From NCBI RefSeq assembly GCF_037042905.1, contig NC_087250.1, positions 18,416,001 to 18,480,000 of the forward strand: DNA of 64,000 nt, written 5' to 3'. This DNA is from Lytechinus pictus (lineage: Eukaryota). The notes beneath the pieces were generated by a model that saw only the letters and a list, made by a program, of their open reading frames with translations, searched no databases and was not told the origin of the DNA. A program made the translations under genes and the position numbers. This document shows, one piece after another, positions 12,989-43,115 of this stretch. Within the stretch, counting starts at the first letter, position 1, and every line of letters begins with the position of its first letter.

Positions 12989-13016
12989 ATGACAGATATA
13001 AGGATAGTTCCCTTAG
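12989..13016 (+). CDS. INTS11: INTS11 exon 1 ([10 protein letters not shown])
   Basis: aagATG, G|GTTTGT donor. Confidence 0.9.
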
Positions 13017-19000: not shown

Positions 19001-22000
19001 ACTGTTTTGTGGAATTAAGCAAAACTTTAAAATGTCATAACTTTCTTATTTTACATCCGATTTTGATGAAATTTTCAGTGTTATGCTTGTTGGATTTTCT
19101 CTTTTTATTCAAATCAACTTTTTGTTGGGGTCGACTTGTCCTTTAATATTGTAGCTAATCTGCTCTGTTCATGCACCCACACGTATATGCAACATTATGA
19201 TTTATGTAATTCCATAGCCCCTCGTTCCATCTACGCCTCTGAATAGTTCACTTTATAAAATTTATTATTAAGGAGATGAACATGGAGGAGTACATGTAAG
19301 AGTAGAAGGAGGAGGAGAACAGAATGATTAAGTGATGATGTTGAAGATGATGATGATTATGTTGATGATGACGATGATGATGACGATGATGATGATGACG
19401 ATGATGATGATGAGGATGATGTTGATGATGATGAAGATGATCAGGGAATAATTTTGCTTTACAAATTTGAATAGCATTTTTGGTCATAAGAGAAAATCTC
19501 TCAACTAAGTAATGTACAGTCCTATGTAAAAATATGCTATACAGAAGACTTTATGCATAGCAGTCTTTAAGCGCCTTGAGCACTCTCCAGAGTGGACTTG
19601 ACGCGATGTATCATTATCATTGTTATTATGATTTTAATCATGTGGAGCAAATTCCGATGCGATACCAGGAAAATTATTCCCCGATGATGATGATGGAGAT
19701 GATGATGATAATGATGATCATGGTGATGATGATGGTGATGATGAGGATATTGATGATGAAAAAAAATCCAACTTAAACTCCTTAAATAAGGGCAACATAC
19801 TGAATATGGTGTGTGATCTGACTTTCAAAATATTATTTCTCGGTCATACAGTAATCACAGTCCTTCCAAACACTAATTAAATCTTACCTGTTCAGTTAAT
19901 CCACATAAAAAAGGTACAGATGGTACATCAGTTAACCCTTTCTTTATATTTCTCTTTCCACAGCTAGTTCTTTTATGATTTTACTACTAATAAATAAATG
20001 TTATTTTGTACGCTATTGAAACATCTTTGATACCCTTTAACAGTAATTATCCTATGTTTGACATTTATACTGCATCAGCAATTTTGAAACGGGTATTGTG
20101 ATACTTGCAAATATTTTGTTTGAATTTCATGAATGTAATTTAATTGTCTTACTCTATGAAGTGCATGGAGAGACTATTTTAATTATGCATGTCATATATC
20201 AATCTTTATTCACATATTTATGAAATGAAAATGATCATATAACAATCAATCTCGTTCATTTGATACTTTTACCTTTGTAGGTGGATGACGAGTTGGAGAT
20301 AAAGGCTTATTACGCCGGTCACGTGCTAGGGGCAGCCATGTTTCACATCAAAGTTGGGCAACAATCTGTTGTATACACAGTATGTCGTATTGCATAATCT
20401 CAAAAGGCTAGATCTTCCAAAAAGTTAAAACCATAGGCCCGAATTCACAAAGGTGGTTTCGAAAACCACCAGTTCATTCTATAGTTTATACAGATTTCCT
20501 GTATAAATTTGGCTTAATTTATCGAGTATACTAAAAAGTGTCCAATACTGATGCGCGCCTTTATCACATTTGCTCCAAATTGACGCCTGTTGCCATGGTT
20601 AAGTATGCTATTTTATTCATGAGTCCACTGTTTTGAATTAATGAGTCCACTCTTCAAAACAGTGGACTCATGAATAAAATAGTGTACTGTGACAAAAACA
20701 TGCATCAGTATTAAACATGTTTTAATATAGGCAGTAAATTAAGCGTAAAGTGATTGGTTTAAAAACTACCTTTGTGAATTTGTTCCATACTGTTCGACTG
20801 GTATCTACGGGGCTCACAAATGTCTTCAGGTGGATTTCCAAGGACGTGAATGTCGGGGGCGTCGTGGTCTAGTGGTTATGATTCTCGTCTGTTAAGCAGA
20901 GGGACGTGGGTTCAAATCCAAGTCATGGCATGTTTTCCTTCAGCCAGAAATTTACCCACATTGTGCTGCTCTCGACCCAGGTGAGGTGAATGATATTAGG
21001 TGAAGAAATTCCTTGAATGCCTAAGCGCCTGATCAAGGTAGCCATGATAATGCCAATGTAATAATAATATGGGAGAATAGTTTTTGGAACTGAAATGGCT
21101 ACCATGGGTAAAATATGATATTATTATCATTATAACAATTTACGAGTCTTCCAAAACCTGTGAGCAAAGATTTTGTGCTCTTATGCCGCATCTAGATCTA
21201 CGTGTAGATATAGATCTATCATGATATAAGATATAATGGTAATTGTCCTTGATTTTACATACTTTCCCATGAAATTAATGTATGCTGCAATTACATCCCT
21301 TTACCCTCGAGGGAGTTTGTCTTTGTTATTTGTCTTTAATTTATTTTACAGGGGGATTACAATATGACTCCAGATAGGCATTTAGGGTAAGTTACACTTT
21401 TTGTAATGATCTCAAAATGAATTCTAATTGAACCCACTAAAATGACCTGGAGCCCGTAACACAAAGCTTAGCAATGATCGTAGAACAAATTTTCACGATC
21501 GATTGCATTGACTACATTGCACAATCAATCGTAAAAATCAAGCTTACGATCAATCGTTTTGCTTTATGTTACGGAGCCCAGGTAACTGTTTGTATAAGAA
21601 AGAAGAGACCCCATGATCTTGTATGAAGATGTTTAATTGCTGAGAAATCAGAAAATAAATAGATCTTCCTGGATTCCCATTCCTGTGTGTTTGAGAGATT
21701 TTCTGTTACTGATTGGTAGCTGTCGGTATTTGTAACTTGTTAGCTTAACTATAATTTGCCTTGGTGGAACTGGAATTAGTATGCCACTCTTACCACTTTT
21801 CAGGTCTTCCAAGCATTACCAGTTATTGGTCCGTTTTTCAAGCAATTATAAAGCACAGTCCCACATGTAGTGATCTGTGTTGGTGATCTTCAGTGTGTTT
21901 ACTTTGTATCTATGATTTCATGATTTCACAAAATTATATATAGGTTGTGACGATCTACAACGATATGGCAGTCGACCAAGATTTTTACAGACTTTCTCAT

Positions 22001-25000
22001 GAAATCAGTGTTTACTTCAACTGCATGTACTCGAGTCAAGCTTTGAAAGGGATATTTGTGTATTATTGAGTTTTAAGAATTGTGAACCTGAAGATTGACC
22101 AGTTTTTTGTTTCTTTTTAAAATTTCTGTTAGTGCTGCTTGGATTGATAAATGTAGACCCAACATCCTCATCACAGAATCAACTTATGCGACCACAATCA
22201 GAGATTCAAAGAGGTAAAATATATTTTTTCATTTGATATATTTCTTAATGATAAGGATAATATACAAATAATGCATGTAAGCTCGTGCATGCAAGGCCAA
22301 ATAATGACCGATGTGTGAAAAGAGCCAATGGATATATACTGCACCGAGGTCTGCAGGACCGAGTGCGGTACATTAATTTGGCAAGTTGAGCACAGAGTTC
22401 ATTATTTAGGCAATGCTCAAGAATGCGTGTATTGTTTGTTTTATACAACCCTCACCCATGTCACTGAGTTAACCCAAATGCTATATTTGATCTAAATTCT
22501 AGATAATTCTAGATAATTCCAGAACTCGTACTATCCTGCACTCTGACATCAGAGTGCAGGATAGTGCATTTTGGATGCAATATTGCAATTCGCTGAATAT
22601 CATGTGATCCAATTTGGACCAATCAGATTACAGAACATTCTTGGGAGTTGTATGATATATAATAAACTGGGCTGAGGGGTGTCAGAGCAAATTCACTCTG
22701 TAGCATGCCCGAGATGCTTATCAATGAAAAATTTTAAACAAAATTAAGAAGGATTGAAAAAGAATGTCTTAAGGTGTTTTTTTTTTATTTTGGAAGTTAA
22801 TCCGGTAGGATTAATTCCTTGAATGCACTGAGCGCTGGTGATGGTAGCTCGAGCTAAAGCCGGGGGTAATAATACCAAGCGCTTTGTATCCTGAGGCAAA
22901 AAGCGATATATAAATCCAGCTATTATTATTATTATTAATTTGTAATGTATTCAGGAAGGCTTTTGCATAGAGGATTGGGTGCACAAACAATCTTTCCTCC
23001 AGGTTTTGGAAACTCATACGAAGTATTTCATTTGGAATATTTCTTCATTCAAATGCTACATCACTATAGGCCTACTGTATATTGTCATTTGTGATATACT
23101 GTATACCACTTCCAATTTCGGTAATAATTGACTTTTCCTGCATTCCTACAGCTGACCCCGACTCTGTGCCATTTTTATTCAAACAACATCAGCTCAAAGT
23201 ATAATGATGATATGATAATATCTGTGATTATGAATCTTTCAACTGTGTGATTTATCTGTTATAGGTGTCGAGAGCGAGATTTCCTAAAGAAGGTTCACGA
23301 TTGTGTATCGAATGGAGGGAAGGTCCTTATACCTGTCTTTGCATTGGGTCGAGCCCAGGAGCTCTGCATACTACTGGAATCATACTGGTGAGGATGAGAC
23401 TGATGATGATAATAATAATTACATGTATAAGATAGTGCTCTATTAAAGGGGAAGTTCACCCTGAAGAAAAGTTTGTTGTAAAAAATAGCAAAAAGATAAT
23501 AAAAAACATTGGTGAAGGTTTGAGGAAAATCTGTTCAAGATAAAGAAAGTCATTAGAATTTTAAGTTTTTGATTTTTAAGGTCATAAACGAGCAGCTGCC
23601 CCATATGTTATGTAATATAAAATGCATGAATTTCATTTTTTTAATGGTTCCTGATGACTTATTTTTATTTTATTTTCATGATCGGGTGTGAAATGATTTG
23701 TCAACTGATATACAAAAGGTAGAGTAAAAACTATCTTTAATTTTCTGAGAAAATGACATTTCATTGATTTTTTTTACTCTTCGCTATGTAGGAATGCTGC
23801 TCGCATATGACGTCACAAATCAAATAATTAAAATTCTAATAACTTTTTAATTCTTTGACTTTTTTTTCTCAAACCTTCGGCAATTTTTAAAATTATTTTT
23901 TTTATTTTTTCCGCTATTTTTACAATAAACTTTTTGTCAGGGTGAACTTCCCCTTTAAAGCAGATGCAAACCAGAAGCGTTAGTAGCACCACCTCAAATC
24001 CTTAACTTCTCATACCTGGCCAGTTTCCAAACCCATAATGCAACATTCAGAGCCGTGTAATCTTGTAATAGCGACCCACTTGAATGATAATATACACAAA
24101 TTCATTTCTCAATACACTGGAGTAGGATTTGAATCCACGACCCTCCGATTAAAGGTTCAGCATGGAGAAATATAAGCCTTAGAAGATTGCTCTCTGATAC
24201 TAAAGGTGGTTTAAAACTGCCTCAATCACAAGAATCCCTGTTAAATTACAATAACTTTTTCAGGCTAAAAAATACCCATTAATTATTTTTGCATTCACCC
24301 CTCCCCGAAACATACGCTTCGGGGTAAGTTCCTGAAGTTGCGAGCATACAGTATGGTCTGATAAGCACGCAAGGCGCGCGATTCAAAATCGCTAGCTCAG
24401 CAGCCACCCACGGCGCCCGCGCCCAACTACACGCTGGGCTAAAAGTTCCCATAATTTGCTTTCCCACTGTCAAAATACCTGCAACCTTGGAAAAAATCCC
24501 CTCAAAATTTCTCGTAATTTTTATGAGTACCTACTTTCTAGCAGGTATTTTCTTTTGGGGATATTACGCGTAAGTTGCTTTCACATTGCCAAAATTAACT
24601 GGTATTTTCTGATCTGGGTAAATTTCCCGATCAGAAAATATGTGGAACTGAAGAACTTCGAGATGGTTTGAAACCAAATTAAATGACAAATTTATCTTAT
24701 AAAGCCTAACCTTGATTGGAATTCCTGATGCCATTTACTACAATTTCGATATATTTTTAATTTGTTTTAATTTTGATGTGTATTCTTTAGGGAGAGGATG
24801 AATCTTAAAGCACCTATCTACTTCTCTACTGGACTAACAGAAAGGGTAAATATCAGGGCCCCGTCTTACAAAGAGTTGCGATTGATCCAATCAATCGCAA
24901 ACTATGGAAGGCCAGCAAAGTCAACATATAAAATGCATGTTTGTTCAAAACCAATTTTACATATGAATGTATATCCATAGATTCATTGATTTCTTGACAA

Positions 25001-28000
25001 TTTGGTGTGATCTCCTTTGTTTACAAAGGACATTTTGCAAATTTCCTGTAGAAAGAATTATAACACTGATGGATTTCCATAGAGTTAATATTGATTGGAT
25101 TAATCGTAACTCTTTGTAAGACGGGGCCCTGATTTGATTTGATTGAATAAACTGGGTCCCATTTCATAAAAGTTGCTAAAATAGCAACTTTTGTTTGAAT
25201 GTCTACTACCATGATAACAGTGAAATTCTACTTCCTGATGGGCTCTGCCAATGAAAGTTGGCATTTTAGCAAGAGTTGCTATTGTAGCAACTTCTTATGA
25301 AATATGCATGCAGCTTTCAACAGAGATTATTTAGATATGAACTATTCTATTCATTTATAATCAATTAGACTTTGTGTTTGGAATCCAGTCTTCATAAATT
25401 GATTATTTCTACGACAGGCAAACCTCTAAGGTGCTCATGTCATTGACCTTTATTTGTGCATGCTCTAATTGTATCTAAACACTGACTTATTGGGGTTGAT
25501 ATGAATATATACCTGCCAACTGTCCCAATTTAATAAGAAGATTCAGAGCTTTTGGGAAAATGGCACCAAAACTGGAACAACCTACGTCATAATATAAGAT
25601 CAATAACAGATTTCAACCGATTCAAATCTGTGTTAAAAACATACCTTTTTAAAAAGCACATGTATTAGCCCTATACAAAATCAAAACAATTAATCCACAT
25701 GCATAGAGACTATTTATCTGGTACTATGCATCTCTAAGAACTGATTATTATTATTATTATTTTTTTTTTTTAAGATCCCCTAAAATCTGAATGTTCCATT
25801 TTGTAAAATTTTGAAGAAATAAATTTTACATCAATGAATATTGTAAATCTTCTTTTGTTTCAATGTATTGATCCACAGGCAAATCATTACTATAAGCTCT
25901 TCATTACATGGACAAATCAGAAGATAAAGAAGACATTTGTGAAAAGAAATCTCTTTGAATTCATACATATCAAGGTAAGATAATAATGAAATATTTTTTA
26001 GTTTTTTAACTAATTCTTTGATAATAATGATTGGTTGTGTTTTAACTAATTCTTTAATGCTGATTTAGTTATGTGTATTGATCATTTGGAACTCGCTGTA
26101 TCCATACCATACACATCATATGTAAATAGTCTTGGAGTACCAGTACTGACTCTCGCCATGTTACAGAGGGTTGCGTGTTTGAATCCCACTTTGGCCTATC
26201 ATCCTGTGGCAAGGCATCAATCCACATTTTGCCACTCTCAACCCAGGTGTTAAATGAGTAGGATGCAAAAATCTAAGTAGTATATCTAACAATTGAATCT
26301 TAGAACTCTTGTTGGAATGCTCCCCAGTGAGTGGAGAATGTGTAGATATTGTGTGCTGGCATGCCAGGATCTGATGGCTTGGGTAATAATTTATCTGTAA
26401 AGTGCTTAGAGATGTCATTCTGACGTATAAGCCAGTTCACAGTTAGCTCATGATCAAATTTCCTCAAATGACCTTTGTGATTTTTCATTAGGATAAGCAC
26501 AATCATTTTCAAATGTAGATGTTGCGTAAGCTTTACCGGTAGAGTATTCAAATTCTAAGAACAAAAGGCATTGTATAGACCAGGTGACTAGAATAGTACA
26601 TCAGGGATAAAGTTTGGAAATCTGTTTTATTGTCTGCCTTTGGCACATTTGACTATTGTTTAGGCTACTGTCAAATACCAGTGATTATGAAGGCTCTATT
26701 TATTACTCTATAGCTTGGATGTGATAAATATTTTGATAGGAATACATGTATGATCATCAAATCACAAATGCCTATGTCAGTGAATTTGAAAGCCACCTTC
26801 ATGGTTGTCTCCAATAACCTTTTTCTGCTCGTGCGCAGTTTACAACCGTGAACAGGCTTCTTGGCAACAGGCTTATTGGGCGCTATACATAAGCAGATAA
26901 TTGTTCTTATTGTTGTTGTTATTATTTTCTCTTTGTTTGCATCCCCATTGTCTTGGACTGCATGTCCAATTTCCATAATTCACTAGTTTTCAACTCTATT
27001 GTGAGAACCTGTGTGCTATGCTGATGTTATCACGTCTTTTTATGAATTGGAAGTAAATACTAAATTGGATTCTTACTCACAGCCGTTTGATCGAGGATAC
27101 ATCAACAATCCCGGGCCGATGGTGGTGTTCGCCACGCCCGGTATGCTCCACTCCGGACTCTCCCTTCAGATATTCAAACAGTGGGCTTCGAATGAGAAGA
27201 ACATGCTCATTATGCCGGGATACTGCGTGGCGGGGACGGTCGGCCATAAGGTGCTCAGCGGGCAGAAGAAGATAGAGATGGAGAATAGACAGACGGTAGG
27301 ATGCCTTGTTGTTATGGTTACAAGATGGTGATGATGATGTGAGGTTCATGATGATAATGAGTATGATGTGGTGGTTGTGGTGGTGGTTGTGGTGGTGATA
27401 AGAATGGTGATGACGATGATAATGATAATGATGTGGTGATGGTAGTGATGATGATGATGATGGTGGTATTGATGATGGTTATATTGATAATGATGATTAT
27501 GATGTTGATGATAAGTGAGAAAAGAAAGCTTATCATGCCAGACTACGATGTAAGAGCAATGGTCAGTCATAAGGTGCTCAGCTGACAGAAGAAGATGGCG
27601 ATGGAGAATAAACAAACGGTAGGATGAATGTTTGCTATGGTTACAAGGTGGTGATGATGATGATGATAATGATGGAGATGATGGTAATTATTATAATGTG
27701 ATGCTGATATTGATGATGATGAAGATGATAATTATTATAATGTGATGCTGATATTGATGATGATGATGATGACGAAGATGATGATGATAATGATGGTGAT
27801 GATGATGATGATATGCGAAGATTGTGATATTGTTCATAATTACAATGATAATGACGTCTGTGATGATATTGGTGATACTAGTGATGACTAACGCCTATAC
27901 ATGTACATTTGGTGTCTAGTGTGTCATTTCAATATTTCAGTAGAAGTAGAACAGTTACTTTCATCTTGTTCAGTGTAATGATGGTATGTTACAAATATTT

Positions 28001-31000
28001 TTCTAATGAACATATTTATTATAATCTTTGTCATGGGCTACAGATTGATGTAAAGTTATCGGTGCAGTATATGTCCTTCAGGTAAGTTTTCTTAAAATCT
28101 CAAAAGTACTTAGTTCTAAAGAAATATTGGGGAGAAGATTAAATAAGAGGGGATTAGTAAAATCAGGTATAATGTTACCCATGCAGGGGTTCGAGAGTTC
28201 ATCTTTTAAGCTGATTTTGAGCTATTTTTTCTTTGGAATTTCAGCCTATTTTAGCTTACCTATGTACAAAGATTATGGGAGATCTTTGAATTTCAGCTTT
28301 TTCAGCTCGTTTTACTTATTGTAGCTTACCTCTGTACATAGTGTATGGGATCTATTTTAATTTCAGCTCTTTAATAATTGTAGCTTACCTCTGCACAAAA
28401 AGTATGGGATCTCTTTCAATTTCAGCTCTTTTTAGTTATTGTAGAATACCTCTGTACAAAAAGTATGGGATCTTTTTTAATTTCAGCTCTATTTGCCTAT
28501 TTTAGCTAACCTCTGTACAAAAAAAACTATAGGATCTCTTTCATTTTCAGCTCTTTTCAGCTCTTTTTACTTTTCAGCACTCACATCCCTGTCATAAAAA
28601 ATGTACAAATTTATTTTCTCTTCTAATTTTCTCATGCAGTACATGCTGAAATGAATGCATAAAATGTATAACTTTATATGAATGTGCTTTGCTTTGAAAG
28701 TTGCGAAGCACTGTATTCCTCATAAAAATCTTACTGCAAATACATTAATTAAGTACTATTCAAACTAAAGATAACTAGAACTAAACTCGTTCCTCAGGCA
28801 AATCCCTGAGTTGAGTTAAAAAAGCTCCTCACTTATGAGAAATCATGAAATAAAACTGCAAACAGGCAAGTTTTTGTTATAATATTTTGTTCTGGTCATT
28901 CATTTTGTAATATGGTATATCCAATTCTATTTTTGTCTGAGTATGAAAATAAATAGAAAATTAGCAAAAATTACCAATTTGAGGATAAAAGCAGATTAAT
29001 CATGACTCTATGGAGCCTATGTAGTTAATGTAACTTGCACTTCCTTTTCAATGCAGTGCCCATTCTCATGCTAAGGGTATAATACAGCTGATCAGAATGA
29101 GCAAACCTACAAAGAATGTTGTTTTTCCTAAATCAATGCTTTTTATTTGGAGCTTATCTCTAAAAATGTTCTCTAAATTTTCAATAACATGCAAACAATA
29201 AAAATCACTATTTAAAATTCAAATTGGAAAATTTTTGGTCATATGTTGCTATGCTCATTCATATGACTCATAATATGTAATGTTTATCCATTTTCTAGTT
29301 TTGCGAAGTATATGTTACTGGGCCCAAAATTTAAAATGGTTGCCAATTTGAGGAACGAGAGCTGATTATTTTAAACTTAAAACAAGTTTTGCATCTTATG
29401 GGTTTATCTATTAACCCATACTGTCTTTTCAATGCAGTGCCCATGCTGATGCTAAGGGTATCATGCAGCTAATCCGAATGTGTGAACCTAAGAATGTCGT
29501 CCTGGTTCACGGTGAGGCCGGCAAGATGGCATTCCTCAAAGAGAAGATCTGTAAAGAATTCAGTAAGTTGGCAACACTTCTCTTGTGAGATTCCTTGATT
29601 GGCAGATATTTTGCAGTAGTTTTGTTTTTTGGTGTAGTTCACTCGAGCTATTAATCGGTTGATTATTTTTAGTATGCGTGGGAATAATATTGATGATGAT
29701 GATGATGAGGGTGGTGGTGGTGATGGTGATGATAATGATAATGATGATAATGATAATTATAATGAGAATGATGAAAAAATAATAATAATAATAATATATA
29801 GTATTTCTAAAGCGCCAAATCCACATTGATTATGTGCTCAAGGCGCTGAAATATACTTGGTATATCATTATTACCCCGGCTGTAGCTGAGCGGCCATATA
29901 GGCGCTAAAGCATTCAAGGAATAAAACCTACCGGGTACCCATTCACCTCACCTGGGTCGAGTGCAGCACAATGTGGATAAATTTCTTGCTGAAGGAAATT
30001 GCGCCATGGCTGGGATTCGAACTCACGACCCTCTGTTTCAAAGTCCGAAGACTAATCCACAACGCTCCACTAATAATAAAGGAGGATAATGAAAATAGTA
30101 TTGAAGTAATCAAGGGAAAGTAATGGCTATATTGTGCCTTTGATATTTTGAATCTTTTGTAATTGCATTATGGATATGGATAGTTAATTTGAAGATAATC
30201 ACTTATACAAAGATAAAGCGGGCAAACTAGGTATTACAAGTGTTACAGTACGAAGATGCAATTTCAAAACAATCAATTACAAGGTTTAACTTCATCGTCT
30301 TAAAGGGGAATCCAGCCTTGGCCATAAAATGTTGTGTTGGGAAGGAGAAAATAAATTAAACAGAGTGGTGAAAGTTTGAAAGAAACCGGTCAAGCAATAA
30401 GAAAGTTATAGCTGTTTTAAATTTGAGATCACTAATACTATGTAGATTTCAAATTGGCAACTGGGTAAGTAAATTATGACAAGGGGCTAGGACAACTTTC
30501 CCATAGGCCATGTACTTTATTATCAGGGATTTGTGGTTTTCTCCTAAGTACCCATTCCCCTGGGGCAGTAATCTAAATATAACCCAGGTAGTATATTGTT
30601 TTATGTCCTCATGAAAGAAAAATATAATTTGAAATAAGTTTTGGGAAAAATGACATTTTAGCCATAATATGTATTGGAGTACATGGAAGAGTAGTCCTTG
30701 CCTTACATCACTATGCCATCCCATATGCGGCAAATTCGAAGTCTCCATGGGTATAGTGATTACCAATATTTACAACTTTAAAAAATTTATAACTTTCTTG
30801 TTGTTTGTCCAATATTGTTCAAACTTTCACCTATCAACTTGTCTGATTTTTCTTTTCCTTATAAAAACAAGTTATTATTTGGGTTGGATTCCCCTTTAAT
30901 GATGAAATGAAATATCATGCATGTCTTTTTTTTCCTCTGCATTATTGGACAGAAATCCAGTGTTACATGCCAGCAAATGGAGAGACGATTAATATTCCTT

Positions 31001-34000
31001 GTAAGACGAATCTGATGGCAGATGTTTCATTGGGACTGCTGAAGAGAAGCGCTTCACTTGCAGGTAATATGGAAAGAGAGTGAGAGAAAGAGAGAGAGGG
31101 GAGGGGCTGAGGGGGAAGAGGGAGGGGGAGGGGAAGAGAGAAGAGAAGGATTATTTACATTCCTTGCCAGACGAATCTGATGGCAGATGTTTCATTGGGA
31201 CTGCTGAAGAGAAGCGCTTCACTTGCAGGTAATATGGAAAGAGAGTGAGAGAAAGAGGGGGGGGGGGGGGAGGGGAAGAGAGAAGAGAAGGACTATTAAT
31301 ATTCCTTGCAAGACGAATCTGATGGCTGATGTTTTATTGGGACTGCTGAAGAGGAGTGCTTCACTTGCAGGTAATATGGAAAGAGAGTGAGAGAAAGAGG
31401 GGGGGGGAGGGGAAGAGAGAAGAGGAGGACTATTAATATTCCTTGCAATACGAATCTGATGGCAGATGTTTCATTGGGACTGCTGAAGAGAAGCGCTTCA
31501 CTTGCAGGTAATATGGAAAGAGAGTGAGAGAAAGAGAGTGAGGGGGAGAGAGAGAAAGAGGGGGAAGAGGGGAGGGGGGGAGAAGAGGAAGACTATTAGC
31601 ATTCCTTGCAAGACGAATCTGATGGCTGATGTTTCATTGGGACTGCTGAAGAGAAGCGCTTCACTTGCAGGTAATATGGAAAGAGAGTGAGAGAAAGAGC
31701 GAGAGGGGGAGGGGGAAGAGGGAGGGGGGGTTGAAGAGGAGGACGATTAATATTCCTTGCAAGACGAATCTGATGGCTGATGTTTCATTGGGACTGCTGT
31801 AGAGAAGTGCATCACTTGCAGGTAATATGGAAAGAGAGTGAGAGAAAGAGAGAGAGGGGAGGGGCTGAGGGGTAAGAGGGAAGGGGGGGAGAAGGACTAT
31901 TAGCAGTCCTTGCAAGACGAATCTGATGGCCGATGTTTCATTGGGACTGCTGTAGAGAAGTGCTTCACTTGCAGGTAATATGGAAAGAGAGTGAGAGAAA
32001 GAGAGAGAGGGGGAGGGGGAAGAGGGAGGGGGGGTTGAAGAGGAGGACGATTAATATTCCTTGCAAGACGAATCTGATGGCTGATGTTTCATTGGGACTG
32101 CTGTAGAGAAGTGTTTCACTCACAGGTATGGGCTGGTAGTATGGGAGGAAGAGAGGGGGGGGGGTGAAAGAGAGAAAGGGGAGAGATGATTAACATTCCA
32201 TGTATGATAATCTTCTTAGGAAACAGATGTGACCTCTCCATCTGTACAATCCTAGAAAATTTGCTGGGATGCAAGCAGACATTCCACTCTATATTCATTC
32301 AGCCAACCCGTTTTACAAGACAAATATTGCACGTTTCAAAATTTGTGATGTTAGTGATGATGCAGGCAACCTGTGTATTCACAGTATTATACAATTGCAC
32401 TTGGCACAAGTGCCTGGTACTTGTTGCATTATTTTAAATAATATTGAGTGTGCTGCATCGCCACAAAACATTGCAAAATATGTATTATTTTATTATAACT
32501 TACTTCACATCTACTCGAGATGTTTGTCTAGAATCTAAGGTAGATATCAACCTATTATGATTAATTCTGTAATCAACAAGGAGGCAAGAGTATATTTCAT
32601 TGCCTTCCTTTATGTATCACTGGCATAGCAAGAGTGGACCATGGAAGTGTTTGTGTATTAGGTCAAGGTCAAAGGTCATTTCAGATGAATGAATCACACT
32701 TGTATCTTTCTGAAACACCCCCTGGATGGGAATATGAGATTATATGCCATTGTTTTTGCCATTTTTTTCATTCGTCTTTTGTCTTAATTAAAGATAATCC
32801 AATAAAATGACCACCAAGTATTTGTATGTATAAATTAAAAATATGTGCCAATTGGCTCTTGACAAAATGTGGAATTGCTGAGAAATGAGCGAAATAAGCA
32901 CTGAATTCCATGAAATGTTAGGTATTTTTCCAATATTAATGCACTGTACCACATAGTGTATACCTTTTTTCTGTTAGTCATCATCATAATTATTGGTTTT
33001 TAGCTAAGATTTCATGATTTCACAAAAATGAGTTGATTTTAATGAAACAGATCTAGATCATGATAATATGGTGTTAATAAGCCTTGATTTTAAAGGCTTA
33101 CCAGGGAATAATTTTCCTGGTATCGCATCACAATTTTTGAAAGACTGCTATGCATAAAGTCTTTTGTATAGCATATTTTTACATAGGACTGTACATTACT
33201 GAGTTAAAAGCTTTTCTCTTATGACCAAAAATGCTATTCAAATTTGTGAAGCAACTTATTCCCTGCTTACTCATGAAATAATTGTTTGCTGCAATTATTT
33301 TCTTTTACCTTGAATACTAGGCATGACCTTGTCAGGACTCCCAGAATCCAAGAAATGTCATACAATGCATGGAGCACTTGTCATACGAGATCAGGTAATT
33401 TCTATTGCTGAATCATTGCTAAATATTTATGTTTTTTGTGGGCCGACCAACGTGCTGGAAGGCACACGTAGCGTTCGCTAGGACGGAAGTATGGATGGAT
33501 GGATGGCTCTTGTCAACCATTTCCCCCCTAAAATGTGAACCTGACCAAGCAAGCAATCTCCAATTTCGATGTCGTTTGGCATGTGGGTAGTGCCGGGTAC
33601 AAGTATTGCCTATGTGAAGTGGTGACGGAATATGTGCAAGTTGTTGACCGCATATATATTCTGGTTGGCTCATAAGAACAAAGGTGAACATCAACCTCTC
33701 TCCATAGTCCGACTTCTACGCCGGAGTGACGCCCACAGGTTACTAGTGTATTCCCTTAACATAGCAAGCATGAAATCCATGAATGGTCAAACTCTAGTTT
33801 GTCATTATTTTTATTCACGCAATTTGTACTAAGCATAAATTTTGAAGAGTGTTGAAGATTTCTGATAGGTTTTTTTTATGTATAATATGGTCTCATGTGC
33901 TCATATTTGTCTTTGCTCTCTGGATATTTATTTGATACTGTAGTCCTACGTGTTTGTAATTGTGTTATTTCTCTGGATACATATATTTAATTTGGTCCCA

Positions 34001-35912
34001 TGCATACATATACATGTATGTGTTTGCTATCTAGATACACTTATTAATACCATGGCATGGACCCATGTGTTCATATTTGTGTTTGCTTTTTGGGTACACT
34101 TATTTGATGCCATGGTCCCATGTGACCATATTCGTGTTTGTTCTCTTGATACACTTATTTGATATGGTCCCATGCTCTCCTATTTGAGTTTGTTTTCTGG
34201 GTACTATTGTCCCATGCAATCATGTGTGTATGTTTGCTGTTTGGATACTTAGATTTTTACTACTGTCCCATGTATTCTTATTTGTGTTTGTTATAGAGGA
34301 TACAGTTAGAGGAGCCATCTAAAGTCATGCAGCAGCTCGGCCTGGTTGAACATGATATTAGGTTCACATCTACTGTATCGACGTCGGCCTCATCCATGGA
34401 AGCGCTCACAAAGAAACTCAAAAGGTTAGTAGCCAAATGCTTTTTATTTTTCTTACATTTACAAGGGGGGGGGGGGGGATGAACTTGCATAAAAGCAAAA
34501 TATTTTTTGCTTTGTAAGTATGTTTGTGAGGATCATTTCTAAATAGCTAGAAGTACTTTTTAACCCTAAATAGACTGATCTATTTCGATGCCTAAGAAGC
34601 CCCCCCCTTATAATCTCGGCCGTCGATCGCGCCATCGCGACGAAAATTGGCACATGCTTTACCCATGGCATTATCTACAAAACTATTATATCAAATTCTG
34701 CAAAAAATCTCATTGCTCATTAATTATGCTAATTTATGCGTAAAATCACAAGTTTGCTCTAATAAATGAAATAATGCCCCAAAAATCCTAATTTTTGTTT
34801 CACATACTCTAGATAGGCATCTGATCAAATTGATTTTTCAAAAATTTCAACATCACATTTATTTCCTTATGTATTCTATTGTTTTTTTCAATTTCTTATG
34901 TATTTCTTTGTTTTTTGACTTTTTTTTAAATTGTTTTTTCAATGGAAATTGTCGGGGACTGTATTTTGACCATAAACAAGATAAAATTAATTGATGTTAA
35001 GTAGTAAAAGGAAAAATAATGATACATTTTATGAATTTAGGCTAAAAACACTATTTGTATTGGATTTGTACACAAATTCAAGTTTTTGAGTAATTTTAGG
35101 TTTGCATGCACTTACGAAATGTTGGGTAATTTCGGAACCGCATCACAATTTTGGTCTCAAAAGTTGTGCGAGACTTGAAAGTAAAAAGTCAGCGAGCGAC
35201 GCGGTAAAAAAAATTTGAGCGGCGGATTTATCGCGAAAAATTTTGAGGGGGGGGCTGAATCAGCCCCCCCCCCCCCCCAGTGTCTTCTTAGGGTTAAGAT
35301 TACTCCATCAGTGATAATAATTGCATTGTCGGCTGTGTGATTATGTATGAAATTATTATTATTATTATTATAATCTTGAAAAGGAGACTGATTTATAACA
35401 AGAGGAGCGCCTCTGGCAGTCTCACCTGCATTATGCTATTCAATATAGCAGCCTTGCTGATGTTGAAAACGACTATAGAATAATCATTCACAAAAAACAC
35501 CATGCATAATACTATGTTCATTGACGCTAAATGACATATGACCTTGATCGTGTGACCGAAGACTTGTGCAAGATGATCAGTAAGCCAATGACAGAATCTA
35601 CAAATTTTAATGAATGATGATAGATTTTTTGTTATGTGAGACTCTATTATTATGTTATTTGGCTGGTGATGTTTTGTGTTTCTGTTTTTGGATTGATGTT
35701 TAGGAGATTCCCACATGAATCTGTTCAACTGATGCCAGATGCTTCTATCATGATGGGATCAATACTACTTAAGGTAAGAGATGATGATGGTGATGATGAT
35801 AATGATGATGATGGTGATGACGATGGTTATGATGATGATGATGGTAGTGGTGGTGATGATGATGATGGTGATGGTGATGATGTTGATGATGTTGGTGGTT
35901 GTGGTGGTTACG

Positions 35913-35944
<32 letters not shown>

Positions 35945-36205
35945 AGTGCTGATAATGCTATGGTGACGGTAATGATAATGTTGATGGTAGTGGTGATGAT
36001 GACGATGAGTCGATGATGGTGAGAAGGGCAATGTTTTTGATGATGATGATAGAGGTTGATGATTGCTCTTATTATGATGATGATGACAATGGTGATATTT
36101 AAGAATGACGATGGTGGTGCTAGAGGTGCGAGGGTGATGATTATTTGATACGGTAATGATGATGTTGATGATAATGGTGATGACTGGTGATAGTGATGAT
36201 GATGG

Positions 36206-36239
<34 letters not shown>

Positions 36240-36335
36240 AATGGTGATGATGGTGATATGATGATGATGGTGATGATGATGATGATAATGGTGATGATGA
36301 TGATGATGGTGGTGGTGATGATGATGATGGTGATG

Positions 36336-36367
<32 letters not shown>

Positions 36368-39300
36368 GATGATGATGATGATGGTGGTGATGACGGTGGT
36401 GATGATGATGGTTATGATAATGATGATGGTGGTGATGATGATGGTGGTGGTGGTGATGATGATGACATTGAAAATATGATGGTGGCCATGATGACGGTGG
36501 TGATAGTGATGATGGTGGGGATGATTTTGATTATGATGATAAAGGTGATGTTTTTAATGTTGGGGAAGATGACATTGGTAATGTTGGTAAAAATGATCAT
36601 GATGATGGTGATGGTGAGGAGAAAAGGGAGGGGAGGCGAAAAAAATATATATATGATAATAATAGTGATGAATATTAATGTTAATGGTCATGATAACGAT
36701 GACAGTGATTGTGCTAATGATGGTAATGTTGATGATTACAGAGACTAATGTTAGTGATGGCTATGAAAGTGATTAGAGTTGGCATGATTGCGAGTATAAG
36801 AAGTATATTTATAGAAATTACAGTTCCATCTTATTAAAAATTTATTTTGTAATGAAGTGATATTTTTCATTCGTTTTATTTTCCCTCCAGATGTCTAGTG
36901 AATCAGAAGAAAGCTTAGATCTTCTTGTTTCATGGCCGTATCAGGTATGCATACAGAATTATGTTGAATCTTAAATGGTCTAGCCGAACCCAAGAAAAAG
37001 TTTTTTTAATGAAAAGAGAGACACCTTGTTAAAGTCACATATTGCAAAGTTCATTTTAAATCAGTAGACCATTTCGTGGAAGTTAGCTATGAGGCGCCGA
37101 TTGTACCAATATTATATAGAACAATTATTTGTTATATAATCATTATTTATTAAATAATAACTATTATTTATATATAATTTACATTTTATTCGTAAATAAT
37201 TACTATTATATAAAATAACATTTCTAATTATTTATATATAATTCCAAGTAATACTTCATTATTTGTAAATAATAATAGTTCGACATTCCATAATTTATAA
37301 ATAATGATTATTTGTTTTTCATTATTTATAAATAATGATTATTTGTTTTTCATTATTTATAAATAATGATTATTTAGTTTTCATTATTTATAAATAATGA
37401 TTATTTATTTTTCATTATTTATAAATAATGATTATTTATTTTTCATTATTTATAAATAATGATTATTTGTTTTTCATTATTTATAAATAATTATTTTTGT
37501 TTTTCATTATTTATAAATAATGACACTACATACTTAATTATTCATAAATAATTGCAATTCGTTTTTCCATCATTTATAAATAAGTTTGTCAAGTTTTCTA
37601 TTATTTATAAATAATAATTATTTATTAAAGGGGAATCCAGCCTTGGCCATTAAATGTTGTGTTGGGAAGGAGAAAATCAAATTAAACAGAATGGTGAAAG
37701 TTTGAAAGAAATCGGACAAGTAATAAGAAAGTTATAGCTGCTTTGAAATTGAGATCACTAATACTATGTAGGTTTCAAATTGGCAACTGGGTAAGTAAAT
37801 GATGACAAGGGACAAGGACAACTTTCCCATAGGCCATGTACTTTATTATCAGGGATTTGTGGTTTTCTCCTAAGTACCCATTCCCCTGGGGCAGTAATCT
37901 AAATATAACCCAGGTAGTATATTGTTTTATGTCCTCATGAAAGAAAAATATAATTTTGAAATAAAACTTTTGGGAAAAATGACATTTTAGCCATAATATG
38001 TATTGGAGTACATGGAAGAGTAGTCCTTGCCTTACATCACTATGACATCCCATATGCGGCCAATTTGAAGTCTCCATGGGTATAGTGATTACCAATATTT
38101 ACAACTTTTGAAAATTCATAACTTTCTTGTTGTTTGTCCAATATTGTTCAAACTTTCACCGATCAACTTGTCTGATTTTTCTTTTCCTTATAAAATCAAG
38201 TTTTTATTTGGGTTGGATTCCCCTTTAACAATGCCAGTGCACATTTCTTTATTTATAAATAATTGGTTGAGTTTCCCATTATTTATAAATAATGATTATT
38301 TGTTAAATAATGAAAACGTCTCGAGTGCGCCATTATTCTCATTATTTATAAATAATCATTATTTAATGTTCCAGTTTTCCATTATTTATAAATAAAGATT
38401 ATTTGTTAAATAATAAAAAATATCTACCTCATTATTTATAAATAATAAAAATTTGTGTGTTTCATTATTTATAAATAACAATTTTGTTTCAATATCCCAT
38501 TATTTATAAATAATCATTATTTATAAACAATTTTTAAAATTTACCATTATATACAAATAATCATTATTTATATACAAATAACCATTATTTATAAATAATG
38601 GAAAACTCGACTATAACATGCAAATGTGGGACCGCCCATGATATGAATATTCATGATGCGATCTCCTTTTTCGTGATTTTTCTTCACAAATTTTTGTCCA
38701 TTTCCTCTTCATAATGACATTTCTTGAAGCAATTTTCTAGGGATATGGTCTGATTGTAATATTCTTCATTTTCTATTTAACTTCGTCTTCGTAGAAATAT
38801 CAAAAAGTGTAATATTATACGATTTTTCCTACAGTTCACAATCCCCATAGGCGCGCGTGTATTTCACCTTTTCCATCGTAGGGACAACCGGTGAATCGAC
38901 GGAGTGCTCTTCATCGAAATACTACGTTGGTTGGTCCCCGGAACTGGCGGGCGGAATTTAGCCCGAAGCCTCGATGGAAGTGGATCAAGTGCATATGAGC
39001 TGAGAGAGTGAAGTATCAGTGTACGAGCATCGATCAGGCCCTTCTACTTTCTATAAATATTCTTTGTTGCTTTTTTTTGTTAAGTTAATTTTTCCTGGTG
39101 TAGAGATAAGTTTCAGTTCTAATAATGCACTTCAAATACATTTTGGAGTGTCTGTTTGAGGCATTTGGGGCGATTTTACCCCGGCCCCAAAATGCTCAAA
39201 GCAACGACAATACGGGGGCATGATGACCCCTAAATTTTTGAAAACTTTTTTTTTTATTGAAAATTATCACAAAATTCACCAAAAGTGTTCATATTTCACT

Positions 39301-42300
39301 TTTAAAACTCCAAAAAGTGCCCAAATGACAAGCTTGGTCGCTTCGCTGTGTCGCTTTCAACTTGAGAACGTTTACACGTCTGCTCCCCCCCTCCGAAAGA
39401 AATTCTGTGTACTGCCATGCTCAAAAGAGCCTAGCTGGCACATTGATTTATATATACTTTCATTTTCATTATTTTTATCTAATTATCATCATGGCCTTAC
39501 GCATAATTTTTTCCAGGGGGGGTCAGGACGCACATAATCTTTCTTTCGATACTGTTACAAACAAAATAAAATCTAGAATGAAGTGTTCCAATCAGACTGC
39601 CTTCTCATCAAAGAATCCTCCTTTGACAGCATAACAGCACAACACACTCTTGGCATCCTGTTGGTCAACTTGTTGAGGGATTCACTTGAAATACCCTGCA
39701 ATGCTTTCTGTAGTATCTCCCACAGATGAGTCTCACTTGTTGGGCAAGTTTCTCGAACCTTCCCAAAGCAGCTCGATGGGATTGAGATCTGGGGACTGGG
39801 GCGGCCAATCCATGATTTCCAGGACTTGTTTCTCTTCCTTTTTCTTCAAGTAGTCTTTGCATAGTCTTGACGTGTGTTTTGGGTCATTGTCCTGCTGGAA
39901 AACGAATCCTTCTCCAATCAGGTGTTTCCCTGAAGGGATGGCCTTCCGCTGTAGGATTGAATGATAGCCATGCTGGTTGAGGATACCCTCTACTCTGTGC
40001 AAGCTGCCTACCTTTCCTGCACCAAAGCAACCCCAAACCATGACATTACCACCACTATGTTTCACAGTTGGCTTGATGCACTGGGGTATCATCTTTTCTC
40101 CCTTTCACCGTCTCACATAGGTACGTTGCTTGCTGCCAAAAACCTCGAACTTTGATTCGTCAGACCAAAGAGCCTTCTGCCACTGCTCCAAAGACCAGTC
40201 TTTATGCTTCCTAGCCCAAGCAAGCCTTTTCTTCCGGTTCTTTTCTTTGAGGAGTGGTTTCCTTGAAGCCACACGGCCCATCAGCCCTGCTCCACAGAGA
40301 CGTCTTCTAACAGTTGCAGAACATACAGGCATCTCACGGGTGTTGTTGAGGTCAGCTGTAATCTGTGAGCAAGTCTGACAACGGTTGCGCAGACTGCTCA
40401 CCCGAATGTATTTATCTTCAGCAGGAGACATTGTTTTTGGCCTACCACTTCGTCTCCTGTCCCCATTAGACCCAGTAGCCTCTTTGCGTTTCAGGCTGTA
40501 GTGAACAGCATGGATACTGATCTTGAGTTTCCTGGCTATTTCTCGCATGGAGTAGCCTTCTTCCTCAAAACTACAATTGACTGACATGTTTCCAAAGAAA
40601 GCTGTCTAGTCTTAGCCATTTTAATTTTGTGACTGACTTCTGACTAAGAAAAACTGAATAGGCAAAATGAATGAAGGTGCACTGGAATAAGTGTTAAAAA
40701 ACTCTGAATAACTTTTGAATTCATGAATTTCAAATTGCACTGATGTCTACTCCACTTCCATGCATTTTCTTTAAAGAAGGATTAGGCATTTGTCAAGTTC
40801 AGATGTTTTCCAGGATAAAGATGCAGATTTCCATAAATTATCTGTCTTATGAACAATACTCAGCAACAAATTCTGAGGACATCTGCTGTAACATTCACAA
40901 AATAATGGGAAGAATTTCAGAATAGAACCCCAAACAGAACAATGTTAAAAGAAGTTAGCATTTTTTAGAAAATGCCATCTTGACTGGTAGCCTGCCCTCT
41001 TTGGCAGCTGCACGTCTCTTAAGAGCTTTGAATTTGTTTGAATCAATGATAAAATGTAGACTGGTGTATAGCCTTCACTTTAAAACAAAAATGCAGCTGT
41101 ACTATGAGGCTTAACTTCAGTAAAGTCTACCAAAGTTCGAAAAACACACACTGAAGGCAGGTGTTCCCAAACTTTTGGAGGGGAGTGTATAAATAATGAT
41201 TATTTGTATATAATGGTAAATTTTAAAAATTGTTCATAAATAATGATTATTTATAAATAATGGGATATTAAAACAAAATTGTTATTTATAAATAATGAAA
41301 CACAACAAATTTTCATTATTTATAAATAATGAGGTAGATATTTCATTATTTAACAAATAATCTTTATTTATAAATAATGGAAAACTGGAACATTAAATAA
41401 TGATTATTTATAAATAATGAGAATAATGGCGCACTCGAGACGTTTTCATTATTTAACAAATAATCATTATTTATAAATAATGGGAAACTCAACAAATTAT
41501 TTATAAATAAAGAAATGTGCACTGGCATTGTTAATAAATAATTATTATTTATAAATAATAGAAAACTTGACAAACTTATTTATAAATGATGGAAAAACGA
41601 ATTGCAATTATTTATAAATAATTAAGTATGTAGTGTCATTATTTATAAATAATGAAAAACAAATAATCATTATTTATAAATAATGGAATGTCAAACTATT
41701 ATTATTTACAAATAATGAAGTATTACTTGGAATTATATATAAATAATTAGAAATGTTATTTTATATAATAGTAATTATTTACAAATAAAATGTAAATTAT
41801 ATATAAATAATAGTTATTATTTAATAAATAATGATTATATAACAAATAATTGTTCTATATAATATTGGTACAATCGGCGTCTCATAGTTATAAATATTCA
41901 TTCTCTGACTGTTGTCGTGGTTACAATCAGAGGCCAGTTTTTCTCAGTCGATCGTTAATCTTGAATTTAGCCAGTGCTGACTGTTCTTGGCCCCATCTCA
42001 CAAAGTGTTACGATTGATCCAATCAATCTCAACTCTATGGAAATCCATCCATGTCATAATTTTTTCTACAGTAAACAAAGAGAATCACACTGAATTTTGA
42101 AGAGAATGATGATGTATGCATATATACATCATATCTAGGAAATATTTTGAACCAATTTACATTATAAATGTTGATGTTGCTGGCCGTCCATAGTTGTGCT
42201 TGATAGGATCAATCGCAACTCTTTGTAAGACAGGGCCTTCACAGACAAATGTAAATGAAATAACAGATAGAACACCTGAAAGTTATGGGGGTCATTTTGA

Positions 42301-42668: not shown

Positions 42669-43115
42669 TGAATGTTGAAGAAATTTAAAGGAAGGAAACA
42701 AGAAAAGTTAGTGACTACAAATCGTGCTACAGTCCCAGACATTCATATTTGTGGATTATCTTTTTTAATACTTCAAGCATCTGTTTGTTACTCTGTTGCA
42801 TTCTCAAAAGAGCTTGCATCCAGAATGAAGAATGTTGAGAAAGAGACGCCTGAAAGAAATTTAAAGGAAGGAAACAAGAAAAGTTAGTGACTATTAATCA
42901 TGCTACAGTCCCAGACATTCATATTTGTGAATTGTCTTTTTTAATACTTCAACCATGCGTTTGATACTCTGTTGCATTCTCAAAAGAGCTTGCACACAGA
43001 ATGAAGAATGTTAAGGAAGAGACATCTCGAAAAAATTTATAGAAAGGAAAAGGGAAAACTTAACGTCTTTAACGATGATAAATCGTGCTACAGTCCCATT
43101 CATTCATACTTGTGG
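42668..43115 (+). repeat. ~180-bp tandem repeat (about 2.5 copies) at the start of the INTS11 3' UTR
   Basis: tgctacagtccc at ~42725, ~42901 and ~43086. Confidence 0.85.

What the first reader, a model, noticed from the sequence alone, without database searches (positions are those of the whole stretch)
30985..32215. Minisatellite built from the INTS11 exon 16 3' half: eight 5' splice sites in series
Seen: the last ~80 nt of exon 16, its CAG|GT donor and a variable, nearly pure-purine (GA/G-run) spacer are repeated, with donors at 31064 (real), 31229, 31371, 31508, 31671, 31822, 31975 and 32126. Copies 6-8 share an AAG>TAG change, recording stepwise expansion. Reading through the first donor hits TGA at 31081-31083, so any downstream donor yields a truncated or NMD-targeted INTS11 lacking the C-terminal domain that binds INTS9 (established). 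The spacers have no pyrimidine tract, so the copies are unlikely cassette exons. Inference: an array of extra U1-binding sites with G-rich spacers could alter intron 16 splicing or pausing, and may vary in copy number between individuals.
Basis: partly seen in the sequence, partly recalled or inferred. Interest (0 to 1): 0.7.

Follow-up and report, generated by a model that had tools for sequence, protein, structure and literature searches.

The report
Splice-donor minisatellite in urchin INTS11
In a sea urchin's INTS11 gene the end of one exon and its splice signal are copied seven more times into the next intron; this is real but a known kind of repeat, seen in amphioxus and a few human genes, that most likely leaves normal splicing untouched.

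Summary
The array is real. The last 79-85 nt of INTS11 exon 16, its donor and a G/A spacer recur 8 times (30979-32128), with a decayed ninth fragment. The gene is an intact 21-exon sea urchin INTS11 (595 of 598 residues identical to L. variegatus). This is a 'mirage', or F7-IVS7-type junction minisatellite. Such arrays usually splice at the first donor. RNA from a related organism covers exon 16 about 40-fold, while 8 of 9 array bins stay at 1.9 or less. Junction counts were not displayed, and that organism's array is unknown. Two corrections: the copies are recombination mosaics, not a stepwise series, and copy 2 does hold a plausible acceptor (a 58-nt frameshifting cassette), with no sign of use. 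Contigs of a second relative suggest about 3 units, so the array is old and changes length. Three other INTS11 exons and two exons of a neighbouring gene have edge duplicates, and the scan noted the same in RCE1, ISYNA1, UBR2 and TBC1D9 of this genome (unchecked notes). Best reading: a neutral duplication scar. New member of a known kind; low interest.

The parts
12989..42668 (+). INTS11 gene, 21 coding exons, 598 aa
   Evidence: tblastn with P0002; joined CDS 595 of 598 identical to P0002, 20 of 20 GT-AG introns; PDB best hit INTS11, E 2e-35
30953..31063 (+). Real exon 16 (111 nt, about codons 432-469); its 3' 79-85 nt are unit 1 of the array
   Evidence: 40 and 44 RNA reads at 31002 in runs X22 and X23
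31064..31149 (+). Authentic donor CAG|GTAATA and spacer 1 (93% purine, G4 motif 31098-31133); read-through stop TGA 31081-31083
31150..31291 (+). Copy 2 with donor 31229; holds a candidate cryptic acceptor CAG|31171 that would define a 58-nt frameshifting cassette (31171-31228)
   Evidence: acceptor matrix score 9.6; 8 of 1370 intronic AGs score higher; stop at codon 521 if included; no sign of use
31292..31742 (+). Copies 3-5 with donors 31371, 31508, 31671 and their G/A spacers
31743..32046 (+). Copies 6-7 (donors 31822, 31975): carry the TAG allele of copy 8 but the donor and spacer type of copy 1; mosaics
32047..32179 (+). Copy 8, terminal unit with TAG, a divergent exon end and a different donor (CAG|GTATGG at 32126); probably the oldest full copy
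   Evidence: contigs of organism A laid over it in both DNA runs (rows 32113 and 32114)
32180..32230 (+). Decayed ninth fragment of exon 16 without a donor; starts with the same GGAGAGA purine patch as the exon
   Evidence: score 46; 0 of 1000 shuffles, 0 of 142 other segments; blastn 28 nt at 86%
33321..33394 (+). Exon 17, acceptor partner of donor 31064
   Evidence: 42-53 RNA reads

Best explanation
This is an exon-intron junction minisatellite (a 'mirage') with no selected function. A slip or template switch from the G/A tract just inside intron 16 back to the GGAGAGA purine patch inside exon 16 duplicated the exon's 3' end, donor and tract (inferred). Unequal exchange between units then changed the copy number and shuffled alleles (mosaicism shown; the process inferred). 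G-quadruplex-prone G-runs in each spacer may aid instability (inferred). In splicing, exon 16 is defined from its only acceptor (30953) to the first donor (31064), so donors 2-8 are functional-looking but normally silent and leave with the intron (inferred from known cases and from a relative's RNA). Rare use of a later donor would carry TGA 31081 and should be removed by nonsense-mediated decay (frame shown; decay inferred).
For: Anatomy matches published cases: human F7, lamin B2 and PDGF use only the first donor (PMC1557585); amphioxus BflGb9 has a 157-bp duplicate of an exon 3' boundary and mirages appear not to disturb splicing (PMC3087553; PMC3902484). The gene is intact. Of 121 INTS11 homologues, 106 match this segment and none has a local repeat of it; the one double hit, P0001, has its two matches 655 residues apart. 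RNA of organism B: exon 16 has 40 and 44 reads at 31002, while 8 of 9 array bins have mean depth 0-1.9, at most 4% and 7% of a fully covered copy. Copies decay as pseudo-coding DNA: a stop in 3 of 7 and missense changes in 6 of 7. Mosaicism: 8 of 15 site pairs fail the four-gamete test. G4 motifs in 6 of 8 spacers; G4Hunter maxima 2.2-3.0 in 8 of 8, against 22 of 2559 windows at 1.5 or more overall. Edge duplicates also sit at exons 5, 13 and 15 and at two exons of the neighbouring gene.
Against: No junction count was obtained: one search showed 15 joints and hid 146, and no splice joint was among those shown. The RNA is from a different organism (fixed differences such as 31002 T>C in 40 of 40 and 44 of 44 reads), whose own array is unknown; the tool cut reads at the G/A spacers; decay would hide aberrant forms; reads from a copy could be laid on exon 16 itself. 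One of 9 array bins (31495-31613) had sense-strand depth 14.7 and 23.5; I ascribe it to dispersed GA repeats (DNA depth 5984 and 3129 there) but did not see the reads. All 8 GT donors are intact and donors 2-7 are identical to donor 1. In human CBS and 6-16, two downstream pseudo-sites are used. Copy 2 has a good-scoring acceptor.
Confidence: 0.78

Rival explanations
1. Leaky array (CBS or 6-16 type): donors 2-3 are used in a few percent of transcripts, all carrying TGA 31081. They are degraded, so functional INTS11 mRNA falls slightly, more so with longer arrays. This would be a by-product, not a selected switch.
For: Donors 2-7 are identical to donor 1 and score 8.2 on the gene's own donor matrix; only 4 of 1463 other intronic GTs reach that. 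CBS and 6-16 use two extra sites. G-runs after a donor can act as intronic enhancers (search listing only, 10.1101/2024.10.07.617118). About 280 and 460 read-bases lie on array bins outside the GA bin.
Against: Copy 2's bin has depth 0.96 and 0 against about 24-28 expected for full use. Units here (137-165 nt) are longer than in CBS (31 bp) or F7 (37 bp); the 100-bp lamin B2 and 81-bp PDGF arrays use only the first donor.
Confidence: 0.14
2. Nascent poison exon: copy 2 has gained a pyrimidine-richer 5' end and a CAG at 31170. A 58-nt cassette (31171-31228) spliced between exons 16 and 17 shifts the frame, stops at codon 521 and triggers decay, tuning Integrator endonuclease dose.
For: Acceptor score 9.6, above 18 of 20 leave-one-out scores of the real acceptors; 8 of 1370 intronic AGs score higher. 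All 6 differences of copy 2 from the exon lie within the 21 nt before this AG. A donor identical to the real one closes it.
Against: The matrix rests on 20 sites. Upstream lies a pure-purine, AG-rich tract with no evident branch region. The new intron would be 107 nt against 515-5658 nt for the gene's 20 introns. No support. Conservation of this AG was not seen.
Confidence: 0.06
3. The array is partly an assembly artefact (over-expanded or mis-joined repeat).
For: No reads from the window's own individual were found: no run held half the words, and no genome is held.
Against: The 8 exon-derived copies differ pairwise by 3-11 of 79 nt and all spacers differ. Contigs of organism A lie on internal and terminal copies.
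Confidence: 0.02

Closest known systems
Amphioxus 'mirages' (BflGb9, BflGb6, Adh3; PMC3087553, passages read; PMC3902484, one passage)
   Same: Minisatellite-like tandem copies of an exon-intron boundary in an invertebrate deuterostome. BflGb9 duplicates an exon 3' boundary with a 157-bp unit; BflGb6 has 150-160-bp units, 6 versus 3 copies between haplotypes, with boundary units left out of homogenisation. Splicing is reported as normal.
   Different: Here it is a sea urchin and the gene encodes the Integrator endonuclease; each unit carries a long G/A spacer with G4 motifs; within-species length variation and normal splicing are not directly shown.
Human junction VNTRs: F7 IVS7 (37 bp, 5-9 copies), lamin B2 (100 bp), PDGF intron 4 (81 bp), CBS IVS13, 6-16 (PMC1557585: abstract, Introduction passages and Discussion read; the other four genes known only through that paper)
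   Same: The first unit spans the exon-intron boundary, so identical donors follow the real one. The most upstream donor dominates in F7, lamin B2 and PDGF.
   Different: Longer unit with about 80 nt of coding sequence; purine spacer; CBS and 6-16 also use two downstream sites, which could not be measured here.
G4-forming minisatellite CEB1 (PMC2673046; search listing and start of abstract only)
   Same: G-rich tandem units whose G-quadruplexes are tied to array instability.
   Different: CEB1 is not derived from an exon; G4 folding was only predicted here.

Membership tests
Mirage / exon-intron junction minisatellite | Head-to-tail copies whose first unit spans a real exon-intron boundary | tested here: met
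Mirage / exon-intron junction minisatellite | Copies keep the splice signal | tested here: met
   8 of 8 CAG|GT; scores 8.2-8.5 against 3.7-12.1 for the 20 real donors
Mirage / exon-intron junction minisatellite | Minisatellite turnover: exchange between units, divergent boundary unit | tested here: met
   8 of 15 four-gamete failures; copy 8 and remnant 9 divergent
Mirage / exon-intron junction minisatellite | Copy number varies between alleles | tested here: inconclusive
   About 3 units inferred for one contig of organism A against 8 here; that is between organisms and rests on matching depth values
Mirage / exon-intron junction minisatellite | Normal mRNA is made from the first splice site | tested here: inconclusive
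   Depth pattern in a relative's RNA fits, but joints were not displayed; no local repeat in 106 matching homologues
Tandem alternative (mutually exclusive) exons | Whole exon duplicated with its own acceptor and an open frame | tested here: not met
   Copies lack the first 26 or more nt and the acceptor of exon 16; spacer AGs have pyrimidine fraction 0.23 or less; stop in 3 of 7 copies
Poison exon | Inclusion introduces a premature stop upstream of further junctions | tested here: met
   58-nt cassette stops at codon 521 of 598
Poison exon | The exon is included in RNA | tested here: inconclusive
   Copy 2 bin depth 0.96 and 0 in a relative's RNA, decay not blocked, joints hidden
Poison exon | Splice sites conserved across species | not testable with these tools
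   displayed 40 of 545 difference rows; none at 31150-31228
INTS11 (CPSF3L) | MBL, beta-CASP, RMMBL and IntS11_C domains; closer to INTS11 than to CPSF73 | tested here: met
   Pfam on P0002, which is 595 of 598 identical to the window's product; PDB E 2e-35 for INTS11 against 3e-12 for CPSF73

The most novel reading that the evidence does not exclude
Sea urchin genomes generate exon-edge duplications preferentially at splice sites, and in INTS11 one such array has begun to matter: copy 2 has become a 58-nt poison cassette (or a leaky second donor), so array allele or length tunes the dose of the Integrator endonuclease through decay. That would be a regulatory exon caught at birth inside a mirage.
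Probability: 0.07. Interest if true: 0.6.

Novelty: new member of a known kind. Interest (0 to 1): 0.22.

Why it matters
As a single locus it is ordinary: the kind is described in amphioxus and humans, and this scan has noted larger examples in the same genome (unchecked notes). Its value is as one more case in a pattern: 4 of 21 INTS11 exons and 2 exons of the next gene carry edge duplicates. In the gene, 4 of 8 local duplications hold a splice site against 1.2 expected (P 0.019; 3 of 7, P 0.066, without this array). The pattern bears on how cryptic donors are kept silent and how new exons or introns arise. Eight near-identical donors with diagnostic alleles make a natural test of the first-donor rule outside mammals. 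Annotation and read-mapping tools can mistake such copies for exons.

Tried and rejected
Whole-genome context: no genome held. Run search: no RNA holder listed and no run held half the words; this blank is not used as evidence. Junction counts: the one lay allowed (2 of 3 raw RNA runs and 2 DNA-contig runs of the 24 listed; about 6 in 100 of each RNA run read) was crowded by a high-copy repeat at about 32566-33311, so splice joints, if any, are among 146 hidden rows. Donor use is therefore left open. RNA structure masking donors: fold of 30985-31300 has z -0.84, 20 of 100 shuffles as good; rejected. Structured RNA: no Rfam match in 29500-34500. Stepwise expansion: rejected. Tandem alternative exons: rejected. 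My first exon table had four boundaries wrong and gave a frameshifted CDS; it was corrected, and only the acceptor, donor-motif and duplicate lists are used. PMC10078293 (passages) shows tandem repeats often affect splicing in humans but gave nothing on donor-reiterating arrays. Earlier notes near this window: none. Echinoderm precedent: searches (15 of 19 papers listed, judged by title and start of abstract) showed none; I ran no search for INTS11 with repeats, most subscription papers are not covered, and no supplements were opened.
Full report
Observation. The repeat is as described. Tandem Repeats Finder gives 30979-32128, period 151, 7.6 copies, plus a 304-bp two-unit period over 31419-32128. 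GT donors fall at the eight stated positions and spacers 1-7 are 58-86 nt and 90-94% purine. Copies 6-8 carry AAG>TAG, and read-through stops at TGA 31081. Two additions: donor 8 is CAG|GTATGG rather than CAG|GTAATA, and a donor-less ninth fragment lies at 32180-32230 (score 46, reached by 0 of 1000 shuffles and 0 of 142 other segments).

Gene. An 83-residue translation over exon 13 matches INTS11 in the PDB at E 2e-35 and CPSF73 at 3e-12. The closest named homologue is Lytechinus variegatus INTS11, P0002. Mapping it gives 21 exons. The joined CDS has 20 of 20 GT-AG introns, no internal stop, and 595 of 598 residues identical to P0002. Exon 16 is 30953-31063. Using donor 2 would stop at codon 475, before Pfam IntS11_C at 506-589. 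Human INTS11 CTD2 (503-600) is needed for dimerisation with INTS9 (PMC7980224 passages).

History. The copies differ pairwise by 3-11 of 79 nt. Of 15 pairs of informative sites, 8 show all four allele combinations: copies 5 and 7 share two alleles near the unit start, while 6, 7 and 8 share TAG. This is mosaicism by exchange between units, not a simple ladder. The unit starts at a GGAGAGA patch inside the exon, and the remnant starts with the same patch at the end of a G/A tract. I infer that purine microhomology set the first junction. Six of 8 spacers hold a canonical G4 motif, and all 8 reach G4Hunter 2.2-3.0, against 22 of 2559 windows at 1.5 or more. G4-linked instability is known for CEB1 (listing only); its role here is inference. 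The copies decay like unselected DNA: a stop in 3 of 7, missense changes in 6 of 7.

Relatives. No run held half of the words. I laid two raw RNA runs of organism B and two DNA-contig runs of organism A on 30900-34460. Both organisms differ from the window at fixed exon sites (31002 T>C in 40 of 40 and 44 of 44 reads), so neither is the window's source. In run X3 a 408-nt contig of depth 36.7 lies on 31301-31423, and the same depth appears at 31002, 31036, 32113 and 32114. If these are one contig, its donors are 129 and 138 nt apart: the exon plus two copies, the last like copy 8. Run X1 also has a contig over copy 8. This suggests the array predates the split and has changed length. It rests on matching depth values, since 7694 piece rows were hidden. 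At 31002 both organisms have the C found in copies 2-8, so the window's exon changed there after the copies arose, or is polymorphic.

Splicing. Exon 16 had 40 and 44 reads at 31002, exon 17 42-53 and exon 18 20-31. Eight of 9 array bins had mean depth 0-1.9, at most 4% and 7% of what a fully covered copy would give. The ninth bin (31495-31613) had sense depth 14.7 and 23.5; it is mostly spacer 4 and draws DNA depth 5984 and 3129, so dispersed GA repeats are the likely source, though I did not see the reads. No splice joint was displayed (15 shown, 146 hidden). Organism B's array is unknown, reads were cut at the spacers, and decay was not blocked. The RNA thus fits first-donor use but does not prove it. 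Of 121 fetched homologues, 106 match the exon 16 segment and none has a local repeat of it. Donors 2-8 score 8.2-8.5 on the gene's own matrix, like donor 1, and only 4 of 1463 other intronic GTs score as well, so they are silent by position rather than by weakness, if silent. No RNA structure stands out (z -0.84).

A correction on cassettes. But all 6 differences of copy 2 lie at its 5' end and create a CAG at 31170 with score 9.6, above 18 of 20 leave-one-out scores of real acceptors; 8 of 1370 intronic AGs score higher. A 58-nt cassette would shift the frame and stop at codon 521. Against it: a 20-site matrix, a purine tract upstream, a 107-nt intron where the shortest real one is 515 nt, and no RNA support.

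Context. Exons 5 and 15 have upstream copies of their acceptor and 5' part, and exon 13 a downstream copy of its 3' end and donor. In the gene, 4 of 8 local direct duplications contain a splice site against 1.2 expected (P 0.019). Without this array it is 3 of 7 (P 0.066), or 3 of 5 (P 0.019) if two copies of a dispersed AT-rich element are also dropped; the test is post hoc and small. Two exons of a minus-strand DND1_DSRM-domain gene near 60-61 kb also have edge copies. Earlier scan notes report the same in RCE1, ISYNA1, UBR2, TBC1D9 and SLC37A4 of this genome (not checked by me); one supplied the term 'mirage', which I verified in print.

Known kind. Borensztajn et al. 2006 (PMC1557585; abstract, Introduction passages, Discussion) describe human minisatellites whose first unit spans an exon-intron boundary: F7, lamin B2 and PDGF use only the first donor, while CBS and 6-16 also use two more. 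Their F7 mutants show the downstream sites are functional but lose to the most upstream one. In amphioxus such arrays are called mirages; BflGb9 duplicates an exon 3' boundary with a 157-bp unit, BflGb6 has 6 versus 3 units between haplotypes, and splicing appears normal (PMC3087553 passages; PMC3902484). Three defining features are met here and two are inconclusive. Searches listed no echinoderm case, within a library that lacks most subscription papers.

Verdict. A real junction minisatellite, most likely a neutral scar spliced at the first donor (0.78); minor leak to later donors with decay (0.14); nascent poison exon in copy 2 (0.06); artefact (0.02). New member of a known kind. Interest 0.22.

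Noticed in passing
window 16708-16966: 127-bp tandem duplication holding the acceptor and first 53 nt of INTS11 exon 5 (97% identical); the upstream copy has no donor and runs straight into the second unit.
   Followed up: partly
window 27238-27503 and 27561-27812: The 3' 58 nt of exon 13 with its donor and the following (GAT)n tract are copied downstream (86% over 98 nt); the copy keeps ACG|GTAGGA and has an in-frame stop.
   Followed up: partly
window 29044-29122: Upstream copy of the acceptor and first 63 nt of exon 15 (84%), 381 bp before the real one.
   Followed up: partly
window 60415-60750 and 61028-61256, minus strand: Neighbouring gene with a DND1_DSRM domain (E 7e-10 and 0.0075; A1CF/RBM46/47-like is my recollection). 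One exon has an upstream copy of its acceptor and 5' part, the other a downstream copy of its 3' end with a decayed donor.
   Followed up: partly
window 33887-34292: Degenerate 55-bp minisatellite that ends at the pyrimidine tract of exon 18, 5 nt before the exon; organism A contigs skip 65 nt of it (34005-34069) in both runs.
   Followed up: no
window 30300-30899 and 37625-38228: 600-bp segment present twice in the gene at 96% identity, with inverted arms of about 78-145 nt; looks like a recent MITE-type element. The first copy ends about 50 nt before exon 16.
   Followed up: no
window 32566-33311: High-copy dispersed repeat in intron 16 (DNA depth up to 97,646 in organism A contigs; reads on both strands in RNA), which crowded the tables.
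   Followed up: no
window 39665-40155: Minus-strand reading frames resembling a Tc1/mariner transposase fragment in intron 20 (the family name is recalled, not searched).
   Followed up: no
window 42678-43115: 176-bp tandem duplication starting 10 nt after the INTS11 stop codon.
   Followed up: no
P0002 and P0121: The L. variegatus annotation holds two 598-aa INTS11-like proteins, 596 of 598 identical, each on a contig of the same length: a recent duplicate or an assembly doubling.
   Followed up: no
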